From Escherichia phage vB_EcoM_KAW3E185: DNA of 64,000 nucleotides. The notes beneath the pieces are model-generated. The model ran no database searches. It worked only from the letters and a program-made list of their open reading frames with translations, and was not told the origin of the DNA. Both the position numbers and the translations under genes were made by a program. Every line of letters starts with the position of its first letter. Position 1 is the stretch's first letter. The stretch is from sequence record MK373782.1; one strand, written 5' to 3'. Of this stretch, positions 24,141 to 29,464 are shown in pieces.

Positions 24141-24327
24141 GTTTCAACCCTTTAATAGGAGATAACTCTTTACCCATACGTATGTCAGAAGTCCCATCAA
24201 CCCATTGAACAGCATACGCTTCATTGATAATTCCAGCGGCAGTTTTAAATTCTTTGAGAACTTTAAAAATCATCCCAGGGATTCCAACACCTTTTAATTG
24301 GACTGTTTGTGCTATTAAAAATTTCAT
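24130..24327 (-). CDS. Hypothetical small protein
   Basis: 65-aa ORF in operon context. Confidence 0.4.
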   Translation of the reverse strand: MKFLIAQTVQLKGVGIPGMIFKVLKEFKTAAGIINEAYAVQWVDGTSDIRMGKELSPIKGLKHVE

Positions 24328-24381
24328 ATTTTTCCACTTACTAAAGAAATCATTATACTCTAATCCGTCCTTGGATGTACA

Positions 24382-24996
24382 CTACTTAATGAAATTAATT
24401 TCTACCGGATGAACAACAGGTTGAGCAGTGATATATTGAGTAATTGCTTTCATGACTAGAGCTTCAGAACCAGGATTTTTCTCAACGAATTCACGTGCTA
24501 GGTTATGAGCTTCGAGTTCACTCAATAAACCGGAACGCTGGCATCCACGGTCTTGAGTACCCTGTTCAGATAAAAGGACTACTACATATTTTTCATCGTC
24601 GTAGGGCTTAGCCAGTTGAGCAAATGTTCCTTTACTTCCAAAAGGAGAGTTATGTCGCCACATCACGCCGTGAGGAGTTTCAACCTTCGTATATTCGTGC
24701 GGTCCATTTTTCTTAGTTTCTTGATGTGGAACTTCATAGACCTTAGGGTTAGGACATTCAATAAAATGCTCATCTAAATCGGTCGAGAATATTAAAGTAA
24801 AACAATTACTGAATTTACCAACACCGGCCTGATAAATTTTACCTTCAGAAGTTCTAATTTCACAAACTGAGCCGGCATCAGTAACTTCTAAAACTTCAAA
24901 AGGCTCAATAAGGTCATATGAGAACATGTTTTTAAGGCGTGGAGTAATATCCCCATTTTTAAAATTCATTTTATAAAAAGTATTAACTTTAAACAT
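24382..24996 (-). CDS. Hypothetical protein (30.x cluster)
   Basis: Start placed at ATG (MFKVNTFYK) preceded by GAGG; the ORF-track start at 25026 is a TTG inside a hairpin. Confidence 0.55.
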   Translation of the reverse strand: MFKVNTFYKMNFKNGDITPRLKNMFSYDLIEPFEVLEVTDAGSVCEIRTSEGKIYQAGVGKFSNCFTLIFSTDLDEHFIECPNPKVYEVPHQETKKNGPHEYTKVETPHGVMWRHNSPFGSKGTFAQLAKPYDDEKYVVVLLSEQGTQDRGCQRSGLLSELEAHNLAREFVEKNPGSEALVMKAITQYITAQPVVHPVEINFIK

Positions 24997-25031
24997 AATT
25001 TCCTCAGTGGGAGCCGAAGCTCCCAATTAAT

Positions 25032-25471: not shown

Positions 25472-25840
25472 TTATGCAACTTTAATCCAATTGTCTAAAT
25501 TTAAAACACCTTTGGCTTTCATTTTTTCGATCAGGTTATCTGCTGTAATGCGTCCATTTTGATACCATGTAACATCTTCAGAGTAACCAGTTTCTTCGTC
25601 AACATATGTTTCTGAACGAATTTTACCGGTAATAATAGTTTTTAATTCATATGTGTCACCTGTGAAAAAGTTTGCTAACACAATTTTCCAAGAGAAATCA
25701 TCTGAAGGACCTTCAGGGGTCATACAACCTACGAACTCAAATTGCTCTTTGTATAACATCCACTGGAATTCTTTAATTTCGATAGCTTTATAACCGTCGT
25801 GGTCTTTACATTTGATGTATGAGTTCAGATTGATTTTCAT
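25472..25840 (-). CDS. Hypothetical protein (30.x cluster)
   Basis: 122-aa ORF. Confidence 0.5.
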   Translation of the reverse strand: MKINLNSYIKCKDHDGYKAIEIKEFQWMLYKEQFEFVGCMTPEGPSDDFSWKIVLANFFTGDTYELKTIITGKIRSETYVDEETGYSEDVTWYQNGRITADNLIEKMKAKGVLNLDNWIKVA

Positions 25841-25882: not shown

Positions 25883-25911
25883 ATAGTAACACATCCTACA
25901 GGAGAGTAAAC
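25883..25911 (-). promoter_or_regulatory. Early promoter (GTTTAC-17-TACTAT)
   Basis: Consensus match upstream of ORF 25472-25840. Confidence 0.55.
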
Positions 25912-25935: not shown

Positions 25936-25966
25936 TAAACGCACAAAAGGGAGACCGAAGTCTCCC
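25936..25966 (-). terminator. CUUCGG tetraloop terminator hairpin
   Basis: gggagac-cgaa-gtctccc; minus transcript has a UUCG loop followed by UUUUGUGCGUUU. Confidence 0.55.
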
Positions 25967-25971
25967 TAAAA

Positions 25972-26151
25972 TTATGCAACAACCTTTCCAAAACGAGAAG
26001 CATCATCTCGAAGAACTGCACGTGCTCTGCGCATGATCTTCTCAACTGTTTGATTAATACGAGAGTTCGACCCACGCTTGTATCCAGCGCGTTTAGAGGT
26101 ACCATCAACTTTCTTTTCAACTGCTTTCTTTGCTTTAGCTTGTTTTGCCAT
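25972..26151 (-). CDS. Small basic hypothetical protein (59 aa)
   Basis: Hand-translated MAKQAKAKKAVEKKVDGTSKRAGYKRGSNSRINQTVEKIMRRARAVLRDDASRFGKVVA; SD AAAGAG upstream; not on the ORF track (a different frame was listed). Confidence 0.4.
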   Translation of the reverse strand: MAKQAKAKKAVEKKVDGTSKRAGYKRGSNSRINQTVEKIMRRARAVLRDDASRFGKVVA

Positions 26152-26307
26152 TATAAATTCTCTTTAAATGAAAATGCAGGACTTATTGACATTGCCTGCG
26201 CAAGCCCTCAAGGGGAACATAGGTTTTGGATATTTAACGACAGGATAACCATAAACCCGTCATCATACCAACCACGACTTAGACAGATAACCTTTTTCTG
26301 ACGCGTG

Positions 26308-26336
26308 ATAGTACAAAATACATTCAAGAGGTAAAC
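26308..26336 (-). promoter_or_regulatory. Early promoter (GTTTAC-17-TACTAT) about 150 nt upstream of the small basic ORF
   Basis: Consensus match within the 263-nt intergenic region downstream of rIII. Confidence 0.45.
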
Positions 26337-26414
26337 CGTAAAACTGCCGGGGACTTAAAACTATAATGATTCGCAAATCATTAATCAGACAGTTCGACGG
26401 CTCCTCGATTTAAC

Positions 26415-26663
26415 TTACTTTAGGGTAATAACAAAATGACGTACTGCTTTACGAGCTGCAGAAGCCAAAGGCTTAGCATATTTCAGTTCATCTTTTGCTT
26501 CCAGTTCAGAGGCCAAAGCTGCCTGGACCGGGTTCAGATGTTTGAAATATCGCAGGATTTCAAGAGCTTCGGCTTCAACATCGATAGATGCGCCATAGTT
26601 TTCGTGACCATTATTCCATGCGTTACGTTGCAGTTCAAGAGCGTGTTGTAATTGTTTAATCAT
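26415..26663 (-). CDS. rIII: rIII lysis-inhibition accessory protein
   Basis: 82 aa, T4 rIII size and position next to gene 31. Confidence 0.8.
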   Translation of the reverse strand: MIKQLQHALELQRNAWNNGHENYGASIDVEAEALEILRYFKHLNPVQAALASELEAKDELKYAKPLASAARKAVRHFVITLK

Positions 26664-26779
26664 TTTAAATTCTCAATTCGAGATAATATTTAGTAGCCAC
26701 GTTCGACTGAATTTCACCTTCTTTCGACAGGTCTCTCAGTTGTAGGCTACCGCTTAGAAGAGTGTTCTCTTCATATAGT

Positions 26780-26787
26780 TATTTATA
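26780..26787 (-). promoter_or_regulatory. Late promoter (TATAAATA on minus strand) upstream of rIII
   Basis: Plus strand tatttata immediately 3' of the gene 31 stop. Confidence 0.45.
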
Positions 26788-27120
26788 TCACTTATAAAGA
26801 CACGGAATAGCTTTATAATGGCATGTTACGAATTTCTGTTTAATTTCTTTAGGTTGTTTAAGTCCCAAAGCCACAAATGGATGTGGAACATTTCGAATTT
26901 GTCCAACTGGTAGTGGAGTCAAATCACCGACTTCAACAAAACCTTCAGGAACATCAGGACCTACAGAATGAACTACACATAGTTCAGGAACTTCACCTTG
27001 AACACGTTTACCAATCACAAGTCCTGATTCGGTAACTTCTTCATCACCTGCTTGAGCGGGTTCAGAAACCAGAATGACATATTCACCAACAGCACGAATT
27101 GGGAGTTGTACTTCAGACAT
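26788..27120 (-). CDS. 31: Co-chaperonin gp31 (GroES-like)
   Basis: 110 aa, T4 gp31. Confidence 0.9.
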
Positions 27121-29434: not shown

Positions 29435-29464
29435 ATAGTATCACAACTCCACCATGTTGTAAAC
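29435..29464 (-). promoter_or_regulatory. Early promoter (GTTTAC-18-TACTAT)
   Basis: Consensus match. Confidence 0.5.

What the first reader, a model, noticed from the sequence alone, without database searches (positions are those of the whole stretch)
25972..26414. Unannotated small basic protein with an early promoter and about 150-nt leader inside a 263-nt non-coding gap below rIII
Between rIII and the 30.x cluster lies a 263-nt region with no ORF on the track. It contains an early promoter (26308-26336) and leads into a 59-aa lysine/arginine-rich ORF (MAKQAKAKKAVEKKVDG…RRARAVLRDDASRFGKVVA, pI clearly basic) that ends in a CUUCGG terminator. The ORF track missed it, reporting an overlapping 61-aa frame instead. 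The composition suggests a nucleic-acid-binding protein. The long structured leader could be regulatory or a small RNA.
Basis: seen in the sequence. Interest (0 to 1): 0.45.

Follow-up and report, generated by a model that had tools for sequence, protein, structure and literature searches.

The report
T4 gene 30.9 and its structured spacer
The small basic ORF is the already catalogued but uncharacterised phage T4 gene 30.9, the proposed early promoter is probably a chance match, and the 263-base gap upstream is an unusually well conserved, folded RNA spacer that no RNA database describes.

Summary
The window comes from a T4-like Mosigvirus. The 59-aa ORF (25972-26151, minus strand) is real and is under protein-level selection. 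It is not new: it is the homologue of T4 gene 30.9 (PHROG 1427), annotated as a hypothetical protein in hundreds of relatives. Its function is unknown. The UUCG terminator is confirmed.

The "early promoter" (26308-26336) matches only the two hexamers. Its flanks score like random DNA. Its GTTTAC rests on a single-base change found in none of 44 related loci. T4 lacks the -10 segment. Both hexamers lie inside conserved RNA stems. Gene 30.9 is therefore most likely read through from rIII and from promoters further upstream.

The 263-nt gap is the largest intergenic gap in 50 kb. Its nucleotide sequence is better conserved across four genera than the flanking genes. It is a mosaic of RNA modules: a long hairpin, a second hairpin, a pseudoknot, a mini-hairpin, and a hairpin with a conserved 14-nt loop. 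Compensatory base changes support the long hairpin and the pseudoknot. Rfam has no match.

In relatives, a strongly covarying 140-nt RNA occupies the same slot. How the spacer works is inferred, not shown. The most likely role is a cis-acting post-transcriptional element recognised by a protein or nuclease.

The parts
25972..26151 (-). Gene 30.9 homologue: 59 aa, pI 11.35, with the invariant core SKRAGYKRxSNxR. The model predicts a disordered N-terminal half and one C-terminal helix.
   Evidence: PHROG 1427 match at E 2.4e-31. tblastn finds it in 1006 phage records. The codons of the invariant motif vary synonymously and third positions change most. AlphaFold2 gives a helix at 34-54 and mean pLDDT 67.
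25942..25967 (-). Intrinsic terminator: GGGAGAC-UUCG-GUCUCCC followed by UUUU. It ends the transcription unit that contains rIII and 30.9.
   Evidence: dG -19.2 kcal/mol, z -5.9. It is annotated as a terminator in G2469 and GiZh. Relatives keep the stem with different sequences, such as GGACUCC-UUCG-GGAGUCC in T4.
25883..25911 (-). Typical early promoter for 30.8 (GTTTAC-N17-TACTAT, with an upstream A-tract). Together with the terminator it forms a PeSL-type terminator/promoter cassette.
   Evidence: The flank score is +19.6 bits, among the best in the window. The PeSL concept comes from PMC4122927.
26152..26414 (-). The 263-nt non-coding spacer between rIII and 30.9. It is probably transcribed as part of the rIII-30.9 message.
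   Evidence: No conserved ORF. Relatives differ by 1-nt indels, and T4's old 97-aa N-terminal extension is closed in the window. Nucleotide identity to T4, IME08 and UPEC07 is 92-99% for the modules each of them carries, against 71-93% for the flanking genes.
26328..26406 (-). Module A: a long interrupted hairpin directly after the rIII stop codon. It contains the inner hairpin UUAAUGAUU-UGCG-AAUCAUUA at 26364-26384.
   Evidence: The RNAalifold consensus has 25 pairs, 5 of them with compensatory changes and few broken.
26308..26336 (-). It is probably not a typical early promoter.
   Evidence: The hexamer pattern matches, but the flank score of -18.5 bits is at background level. The T of GTTTAC is absent from all 44 related loci. 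T4 lacks the -10 segment.
26266..26313 (-). Module P: a hairpin in which UACUAUCACG pairs with CGUGGUUGGUA. Its inner stem is CAGA/UCUG and its loop is AAAAGGUUA. It is absent from T4, and a 140-nt RNA (module B) replaces it in many relatives.
   Evidence: The predicted fold includes the TACTAT bases. The inner stem covaries, CAGA/UCUG against CAGC/GCUG, and different closing stems flank the same core in L042 and L049 (read by eye). Presence and absence are mapped.
26222..26261 (-). Module C1: an H-type pseudoknot. Stem 1 is GACGGG/CCUGUC. Stem 2 pairs GGUU in the loop with AACC downstream. The linker GUUAAAUAUCCAAA is conserved.
   Evidence: Both helices covary: 46 cells changed on both sides against 19.4 +/- 3.5 in shuffles (0 of 500 shuffles reach the observed value), with a covariation score of 0.349 against at most 0.161 in the slid controls. 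Stem 2 reaches 7-11 bp in other genera and beats shuffled tails.
26199..26215 (-). Module C2: the mini-hairpin CCC-CUUGA-GGG followed by the conserved CUUGCG.
   Evidence: It occurs once in the window, with 0.03 matches expected by chance. It is present in most relatives and can sit before or after C1. One relative has GCCU/AGGC in place of CCCU/AGGG (read by eye).
26176..26199 (-). Module H: a hairpin with stem GCAGG/CCUGC and the conserved 14-nt loop CAAUGUCAAUAAGU, followed by a U-rich stretch.
   Evidence: The loop is conserved while the stem changes to (G)AACUGG/CCAGUU(C) in Proteus-type phages. One pair is compensated, A-U to U-A. Other structured inserts, such as motif E, fill the same slot in Moon and Jiaoda phages.
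26149..26175 (-). Ribosome-binding region of 30.9: AUUUUC-AUUUAAA-GAGAAU, a weak hairpin over the Shine-Dalgarno GAGA, followed by AUG.
   Evidence: Seen in the sequence. Occlusion is not exceptional: the mean unpaired probability is 0.52, rank 36 of 64 genes. Other genera have stronger UCC/GGA or CCUC/GAGG hairpins at this place.
26415..26663 (-). rIII (lysis-inhibition accessory protein), the upstream gene of the same transcription unit.
   Evidence: PHROG 1457 match at E 3.8e-43. Annotated as rIII in relatives.
26780..26787 (-). TATAAATA, the T4 late-promoter consensus, overlapping the gp31 stop codon. It would drive late rIII transcripts, with read-through into 30.9.
   Evidence: Seen in the sequence and kept in nearly all relatives. 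The consensus itself is established T4 knowledge, not tested here.

Best explanation
The ORF is the Mosigvirus copy of T4 gene 30.9. It encodes a 6.6-kDa, very basic early protein of unknown function and is the last gene of a transcription unit that runs through gp31 and rIII and stops at the UUCG terminator.

The 263-nt gap is not a promoter followed by a leader. It is a transcribed intercistronic spacer, serving both as the 3' UTR of rIII and the 5' leader of 30.9. It folds into a chain of conserved modules: hairpin A, hairpin P, pseudoknot C1, mini-hairpin C2, and hairpin H with a conserved loop.

The most likely role is cis-acting post-transcriptional control of the 30.9 message. The conserved single-stranded loops would be recognition sites for a protein or nuclease that sets the translation, processing or stability of the downstream cistron independently of rIII. 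This is the logic known for the pseudoknot-containing leader of T4 gene 32.

Shown here: the gene's identity, its coding nature, the terminator, the conservation of the spacer, and the covarying helices. Inferred: read-through transcription and a regulatory role. Unknown: the trans-acting factor.
For: Gene identity and coding nature:
- PHROG 1427 match, synteny between rIII and 30.8, and annotations in relatives.
- T4 30.9 (T4p212, P17310) is in the 'early' RNA class in PMC9697503.
- The invariant motif's codons vary synonymously, and the alternative frame is broken in seven of eight relatives of other genera.

The spacer is under nucleotide-level constraint:
- Modules A, P and C1-H are 92-99% identical to T4, IME08 and UPEC07 wherever those phages carry the module, while rIII is 84-88% and 30.9 is 71-93%.
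- A gap of 120-416 nt is kept in all 47 distinct relatives examined.

RNA structure:
- Module A has 25 pairs, 5 of them compensated.
- Both C1 helices covary above shuffled and slid controls.
- Module H keeps its loop while its stem changes.

Read-through rather than an internal promoter:
- The internal candidate scores at background level, depends on a private single-base change, and is missing in T4.
- In relatives, helix 1 of module B and the closing stem of module P begin at or inside the would-be -10, so they need transcripts that start upstream.
- The scan found no terminator between rIII and 30.9.

Link to the rIII context:
- Distant 30.9 homologues that have their own promoter carry short leaders without these modules. 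This ties the structured spacer to co-transcription with rIII.
Against: - No transcript, 5'-end or translation data were examined for the spacer.
- In this window the Shine-Dalgarno region is no more occluded than in an average gene, so simple masking of the ribosome-binding site is not supported here.
- Single-sequence folding energies of the modules are unremarkable, z -0.5 to -1.35.
- The modules are optional and get re-ordered between phages, and they are exchanged with the gp31-rIII leader. That fits mobile or trans-acting RNAs at least as well as a dedicated 30.9 operator.
- The leader type (H or E) does not track the C-terminal type of gp30.9. This gives no sign of co-evolution between the protein and the leader.
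- The window-specific GTTTAC could still have created a working promoter in this one phage.
Confidence: 0.4

Rival explanations
1. The spacer modules are stand-alone non-coding RNAs, or decoys, that are processed out of the rIII-30.9 transcript and act in trans. They could, for example, bind a host or phage protein or counter a host defence. They would spread between co-infecting T4-like phages by recombination, and 30.9 would merely be the neighbouring gene.
For: - The distribution is patchy but the nucleotide identity is very high. Module B is present once per genome in 404 phage records, at 93-100% identity across most genera and down to 86-90% in the most divergent (Aeromonas, Serratia), and it is never annotated.
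- Module B is a closed domain with 42 pairs, 15 of them compensated, and 99.4% of cells paired.
- Modules are swapped between the rIII leader and the 30.9 leader.
- Unpaired loops are conserved.
- The spacer is better conserved than the flanking genes.
Against: - There is no expression or processing evidence.
- The modules always sit in the same two leaders and on the sense strand, as cis elements do.
- The window lacks module B.
- There is no similarity to host RNAs or DNA and no Rfam family, so no target can be named.
Confidence: 0.25
2. A functional early promoter at 26308-26336 starts a roughly 150-nt structured leader, and 30.9 is expressed as its own early unit.
For: - The site is an exact GTTTAC-N17-TACTAT match. 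That pattern is enriched in this window, with 20 matches found against 3.1 expected, and TACTAT is the commonest -10 hexamer of the phage's early promoters.
- The TACTAT is conserved in relatives that carry module P.
- T4 30.9 RNA is in the early class.
- Distant homologues do have their own early-type promoters.
Against: - The flanks score -18.5 bits, which is background level. The site groups with the three other low-scoring matches (58507, 46257, 17711), and about 3 chance matches are expected.
- There is no upstream A-tract, no GGA..TGTG spacer motif, and no conserved initial transcribed sequence.
- The GTTTAC is private to this genome.
- T4 lacks the -10.
- In one relative, L017, the spacing is 11 nt.
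- Both hexamers lie in RNA stems that covary or are predicted to pair.
Confidence: 0.2
3. The spacer has no specific regulatory ligand. It is a passive insulator. Its stable structure keeps the long untranslated stretch from loading Rho and from nuclease attack, supplies RNase E or RegB processing sites, and serves as a recombination hot-spot, like PeSL cassettes.
For: - A GGAG (the RegB target) sits at the start of module A, and an AU-rich single-stranded linker flanked by stems (GUUAAAUAUCC) lies in C1 (the enzyme specificities are from established T4 literature and were not tested here).
- The mosaic, cassette-like organisation and the partial duplication of the C1 5' half at the end of module P point to repeated recombination.
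- A true PeSL lies immediately downstream.
Against: A passive structure would not need conserved loop sequences, nor 92-99% nucleotide identity across genera. It also would not need the specific covarying pseudoknot that persists even in a phage whose gp30.9 is only about 50% identical (L072).
Confidence: 0.15

Closest known systems
Bacteriophage T4 gene 30.9 (T4p212, UniProt P17310; older name 'uncharacterized 11.1 kDa protein in Gp30-rIII intergenic region', ORF D; PHROG 1427)
   Same: About 90% amino-acid identity. It sits in the same position between rIII and 30.8, is about the same length (58 against 59 aa), has the same invariant SKRAGYKRxSNxR core, has the same terminator downstream, and has the same long upstream gap (244 nt in T4).
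   Different: T4 lacks module P, and therefore lacks the TACTAT of the proposed promoter. It carries an extra module D after rIII. In T4 the reading frame stays open upstream to give the old 97-aa '11.1 kDa' call. In the window that extension is closed by 1-nt indels. The function is unknown in both.
Autoregulatory 5' leader of T4 gene 32 mRNA (a pseudoknot followed by an AU-rich stretch, bound by gp32)
   Same: Both are long untranslated leaders of a T4-type early gene that contain an H-type pseudoknot well upstream of the start codon, with AU-rich single-stranded RNA downstream. This is the best-known precedent for how such a leader can work (from established T4 literature; the comparison is by design only).
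   Different: No sequence or model comparison was made. The binding protein for the 30.9 leader is unknown. The 30.9 spacer is more than twice as long as the gene 32 leader of this phage (263 against 117 nt). It is modular and carries several further hairpins.
PeSL cassettes (promoter-early stem-loop) of T4-like phages (Arbiol 2010; Comeau 2014, PMC4122927)
   Same: The terminator at 25942-25967 plus the early promoter at 25883-25911, just downstream of 30.9, is a PeSL-type unit. Like PeSL-flanked regions, the spacer shows cassette-like gain, loss and re-ordering between phages.
   Different: The spacer modules are not terminator/promoter pairs. They lack the early-promoter signature and show RNA-level covariation.
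Arginine-rich-motif RNA-binding peptides (for example lambda N)
   Same: Both are short, very basic, and predicted to be disordered where the invariant residues lie, with a helix next to them.
   Different: There is no sequence relationship and no test of binding. This is only a lead for the protein's mode of action.

Membership tests
T4 gp30.9 family (PHROG 1427) | Significant match to the family profile | tested here: met
   phrog_1427 at E 2.4e-31, covering residues 1-57. A profile search finds 138 relatives, all small phage proteins. The exhaustive search finds only 24 cluster representatives among 1.84 billion proteins.
T4 gp30.9 family (PHROG 1427) | Position between rIII and 30.8, followed by a terminator | tested here: met
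   The order gp31, rIII, 30.9, terminator, 30.8 (Pfam Phage_30_8 at E 6.7e-44) and 30.7 is seen in the window and its relatives.
T4 gp30.9 family (PHROG 1427) | Reading frame and invariant core kept by selection on the protein | tested here: met
   Across 48 distinct coding sequences the SKRAGYKR codons vary only synonymously, including a TCN/AGT switch for serine. Third codon positions change most.
T4-type early promoter | GTTTAC-type -35 and TAnnnT -10, 16-18 nt apart | tested here: met
   GTTTAC-N17-TACTAT at 26308-26336.
T4-type early promoter | Flanking signature of the phage's own early promoters: upstream A/T tract, GGA..TGTG in the spacer, and a conserved initial transcribed region | tested here: not met
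   A leave-one-out weight matrix over the 47 positions not fixed by the pattern gives the candidate -18.5 bits. Fifteen typical sites score -3 to +24, and random positions score -22.4 +/- 9.2.
T4-type early promoter | Conservation of the promoter elements in relatives | tested here: not met
   All 44 related loci have GTGTAC. T4 lacks the -10 segment, and L017 has an 11-nt spacer.
T4-type early promoter | A primary transcript 5' end at the site | not testable with these tools
   No 5'-end data are available here.
Intrinsic (Rho-independent) terminator | G+C-rich hairpin followed by a U run just after the stop codon, conserved in relatives | tested here: met
   A 7-8 bp G+C-rich stem with a UUCG loop and UUUU, dG -19.2 kcal/mol, z -5.9. 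Relatives keep the stem with different sequences. It is annotated as a terminator in two records. The simple scan missed it, probably because stem extension left too few U in its tail window.
Conserved structured RNA (cis-regulatory element or ncRNA) | Base pairs maintained by compensatory changes, above controls | tested here: met
   Module A has 5 compensated pairs among 25. For C1, 0 of 500 shuffles reach the observed double-change cells or covariation score, and the slid controls are lower. Module H has only 1 compensated pair, and modules P and C2 were judged by eye.
Conserved structured RNA (cis-regulatory element or ncRNA) | Membership of a described RNA family | tested here: not met
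   No credible Rfam 15 match in the window region at E up to 10, nor in 9 related loci at E up to 1.
preQ1-I-like pseudoknot riboswitch (considered because C1 is an H-type pseudoknot with an A-rich 3' tail) | Match to the covariance model and association with queuosine genes | tested here: not met
   No PreQ1 hit in the permissive Rfam scans. The neighbouring genes are rIII and 30.9.
Protein-coding N-terminal extension or upstream ORF in the gap (the old '11.1 kDa' ORF D) | Reading frame conserved among relatives | tested here: not met
   The 97-aa form exists for T4 (P0036). In the window the extension frame stops after 10 codons. Relatives differ by 1-nt and 2-nt indels throughout the gap.

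The most novel reading that the evidence does not exclude
The rIII-30.9 spacer of T4-like phages, including T4 itself, is a 'non-coding hyperplastic region'. On this reading it carries a family of undescribed structured RNA modules that are exchanged horizontally. They include pseudoknot C1, loop-conserved hairpin H, motif E and, in about 400 sequenced relatives, a 140-nt multi-helix RNA (module B). They would act in trans, for example as decoys for host RNA-binding or defence proteins, possibly together with the invariant basic peptide gp30.9.
Probability: 0.2. Interest if true: 0.8.

Novelty: new variant of a known kind. Interest (0 to 1): 0.45.

Why it matters
Gene 30.9 and the gap upstream of it exist in T4, one of the best-studied viruses, yet neither has a known function. 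Three results make this a tractable problem in a model system. First, the gap is the best-conserved DNA of the neighbourhood. Second, it folds into covarying modules that no RNA family describes. Third, relatives insert a strongly covarying 140-nt RNA at the same place. The region could reveal a new post-transcriptional control element or a new class of phage non-coding RNA. The result also corrects a tempting mis-annotation: a perfect-looking early promoter that is probably a one-base accident inside an RNA stem.

Tried and rejected
- Rfam scans of the window region and of 15 related loci gave only chance-level hits.
- ARAGORN found no tRNA or tmRNA.
- blastn of the spacer and of a Moon-type spacer against 5,426 E. 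coli genomes found no match, so there is no host mimicry at the sequence level.
- Pfam, PADLOC and a PDB profile search with gp30.9 found nothing significant. The SlmA hit at E 0.7 is noise.
- AlphaFold2 gave a single helix and a disordered half, so no fold search was worth running.
- The exhaustive profile search found no larger or cellular relatives.
- The gene neighbourhood of a distant homologue was uninformative.
- Strong masking of the Shine-Dalgarno site was tested as the mechanism. It was not supported for this window.
- Literature searches for 30.9, for T4 small RNAs and for structured RNAs of T4-like phages found no description of the spacer. The T4 genome review (PMC150520) is not held.
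- A resemblance of SKRAGYKR to the N-terminus of ribosomal protein bL32 was recalled from memory only. Pfam gave no such hit, so it was dropped.
- A coding reading of the gap was rejected because of the indel pattern and the compensatory changes.

Full report
**What the window is.** The region is 99.8% identical to Escherichia phage vB_EcoM_G2469, a T4-like Mosigvirus. All the genes discussed here lie on the minus strand. Their order is cd, 31.1, gp31 (26788-27120), rIII (26415-26663), the 59-aa ORF (25972-26151), 30.8 (25472-25840) and 30.7.

**The observation.** Three parts of it hold.
- The ORF-free gap is exactly 263 nt (26152-26414). It is the largest true intergenic gap in 50 kb of the near-identical annotated genome, where other gaps stay around 120 nt or less.
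- The ORF has the quoted sequence, pI 11.35 and a mass of 6.6 kDa.
- Four bases after its stop codon lies GGGAGAC-UUCG-GUCUCCC-UUUU, with dG -19.2 kcal/mol and z -5.9.

The string GTTTAC-N17-TACTAT is indeed at 26308-26336.

**The ORF is T4 gene 30.9.**
- It matches PHROG 1427 at E 2.4e-31.
- tblastn finds it in 1006 phage records.
- It is annotated in relatives as gp30.9, as a hypothetical protein, or as 'putative 11.1 kDa protein, ORF D, in Gp30-rIII intergenic region'.
- In T4 it is T4p212 (P17310). It falls in the 'early' RNA class, and no protein class is recorded for it in the time-resolved omics study PMC9697503.

**It is a real coding gene.**
- Across 48 distinct coding sequences, the invariant core SKRAGYKRxSNxR is encoded by synonymous codon variants: TCT, TCC, TCA and AGT for serine, CGC and CGT, GGA, GGC and GGT, TAC and TAT.
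- Third codon positions change most.
- The overlapping 61-aa frame is broken by stop codons in seven of eight relatives of other genera; only T4 keeps it open.

**What the protein looks like.**
- Profile searches find only small phage proteins of 41-105 aa: 138 in the indexed search, and 24 cluster representatives among 1.84 billion proteins in the exhaustive search.
- There is no Pfam, PADLOC or PDB relative.
- AlphaFold2, run with 34 sequences, predicts a disordered residue range 1-33 that contains the invariant motif, and one helix at 34-54. Mean pLDDT is 67.

This is the pattern of a peptide that folds on a partner. The partner is unknown, and nucleic-acid binding remains a guess.

**The proposed promoter.** The hexamer pattern is enriched in this window, with 20 matches against 3.1 expected, almost all on the minus strand. 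The typical sites share more than the two hexamers. They have an upstream A/T tract, GGA..TGTG in the spacer, and a conserved initial transcribed sequence resembling AGACCTATCAAC. I built a leave-one-out weight matrix over the 47 positions not fixed by the pattern.

| Sites scored | Score (bits) |
|---|---|
| 15 typical early promoters in the window | -3 to +24 |
| Random genome positions | -22.4 +/- 9.2 |
| Candidate at 26308-26336 | -18.5 |

The candidate groups with three other low-scoring matches (58507, 46257, 17711). That agrees with the roughly three chance matches expected.

Four further points weaken the call.
- The T that makes GTTTAC is private to this genome. All 44 related loci that carry this stretch have GTGTAC.
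- T4 lacks the whole -10 segment, and one relative has an 11-nt spacer.
- The -35 lies in the 3' arm of a covarying hairpin.
- The TACTAT is predicted to form the 5' arm of the next hairpin.

I therefore rate a functional, typical early promoter here at about 0.2. In contrast, the site just downstream of the terminator (25883-25911) scores +19.6 bits. Together with the terminator it forms a PeSL-type cassette.

**The likely transcription unit.** No terminator-like site was found between rIII and 30.9. TATAAATA, the T4 late-promoter consensus, overlaps the gp31 stop codon at 26780-26787 and is kept in relatives. The next typical early promoter upstream is at 29435-29464. The simplest reading is that 30.9 is the last cistron of transcripts that pass through rIII and end at the UUCG terminator. 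This is inferred, not shown.

**The gap itself.** Every relative that has rIII next to 30.9 keeps a gap of 120-416 nt. There are 47 distinct versions. The gap is a mosaic of nucleotide modules, and the window carries A, P, C1, C2 and H. One search gives the nucleotide identity of window segments to T4, IME08 (Dhakavirus) and UPEC07 (Gaprivervirus).

| Segment | Identity |
|---|---|
| Module A | 95-96% |
| Module P | 99% (IME08 only; T4 and UPEC07 lack P) |
| C1-C2-H-SD | 92-96% |
| rIII | 84-88% |
| 30.9 | 71-93% |
| gp31 | 77-88% |
| 30.8 | 82-85% (IME08 and UPEC07; the T4 alignment covers only 7%) |

The region is not coding. Relatives differ by 1-nt and 2-nt indels. T4's old 97-aa N-terminal extension of 30.9 is closed in the window.

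**RNA structure of the window's modules.**
- **Module A (26328-26406).** A long interrupted hairpin with 25 consensus pairs, 5 of them compensated.
- **Module C1 (26222-26261).** An H-type pseudoknot in which both helices covary. There are 46 cells changed on both sides against 19.4 +/- 3.5 in shuffles, and 0 of 500 shuffles reach the observed value. The covariation score is 0.349 against at most 0.161 when the partners are slid. The second helix is 7-11 bp long in other genera and beats shuffled tails.
- **Module H (26176-26199).** It keeps its 14-nt loop CAAUGUCAAUAAGU while the stem changes. Only one pair is compensated in the small set available.
- **Modules P and C2.** These show compensatory differences by eye.

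Single-sequence folding energies are unremarkable, z -0.5 to -1.35. The support therefore comes from comparison between phages, not from thermodynamics. Rfam 15 has no credible match, and there is no similarity to E. coli DNA.

**How it may work.** The architecture recalls the T4 gene 32 leader: a pseudoknot, then hairpins with conserved loops, then the ribosome-binding site of an early gene. I therefore favour a cis-acting post-transcriptional element recognised by a protein or nuclease (confidence 0.4). Several results temper this.
- The Shine-Dalgarno region of 30.9 in this window is not unusually occluded. Its unpaired probability is 0.52, rank 36 of 64 genes.
- The modules are optional and get re-ordered between phages.
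- Modules are exchanged with the gp31-rIII leader.
- The leader type does not track the protein's C-terminal type.
- Distant 30.9 homologues keep the invariant motif but have their own promoter and a short plain leader. The motif's primary target is therefore not the leader.

These points keep two rivals alive: trans-acting RNAs that spread by recombination (0.25), and a passive insulator or processing spacer (0.15).

**Novelty and interest.** The gene is already known as an uncharacterised T4 gene. The promoter is probably an artefact. The conserved, covarying, modular spacer is not described in Rfam or in the literature I could search. It is present in T4 itself. I rate it a new variant of a known kind, a structured phage mRNA leader, with moderate interest.

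Noticed in passing
Not in the window. Example: L013:868-1012 (Citrobacter phage Moon), in the rIII-30.9 gap, in the slot where the window has module P (26266-26313).: A roughly 140-nt RNA ('module B') occurs once per genome in 404 phage records. Identity is 93-100% across most genera and 86-90% in the most divergent (Aeromonas, Serratia), and it is never annotated. Its consensus structure has 42 pairs in 7 helices. Fifteen pairs are compensated and 99.4% of cells are paired. No shuffle out of 500 reaches the observed values, and the slid controls give 0-1 compensated pairs. Rfam has no match. It is a strong candidate for an undescribed phage RNA.
   Followed up: partly
window 26693-26751 (minus strand), in the gp31-rIII intergenic region: This is structured motif 'E'. 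It has a covarying closing stem, the conserved UACAAC, a nested variable hairpin, and the conserved GA(A/C)GAACGUG. In Moon and Jiaoda phages the same motif sits just upstream of 30.9 instead. Five of 9 consensus pairs are compensated. The single-sequence fold of the gap has z -3.2. Rfam has no match.
   Followed up: partly
window 26664-26787 (minus strand), and the same gap in related loci: The rIII leader has the same design as the 30.9 leader. Its parts are the late promoter TATAAATA, a variable hairpin, a large stem-loop whose interior is one of several alternative conserved cassettes, and a small hairpin over the Shine-Dalgarno site (CCUC..GAGG in many genera). The two ribosome-binding regions in the window are almost identical: GAGAAUUUAAAAUG and GAGAAUUUAUAAUG.
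   Followed up: partly
L073 and L075 (metagenome contigs of 122 and 285 kb): Distant phages carry two paralogous copies of the 30.9-like gene about 870 bp apart. Each copy has its own sigma-70-like promoter and a short leader.
   Followed up: no
window 24326-24647, compared with the annotation of G2469 and moha: The gene downstream of 30.7 is annotated with different lengths. It is 348 nt in G2469 and 615 nt in phage moha, and the window has a 214-aa TTG-start ORF at 24382-25026. The apparent 322-nt gap in G2469 is probably a start-codon annotation problem.
   Followed up: no
window 26266-26278 and 26249-26261 (minus strand): The 3' end of module P (GUCGUGGUUGGUA) resembles the 5' half of the C1 pseudoknot of other genera (GUCGUGGUUGGUAGUUAUCC in L040). 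This suggests a partial duplication left by recombination between modules.
   Followed up: no
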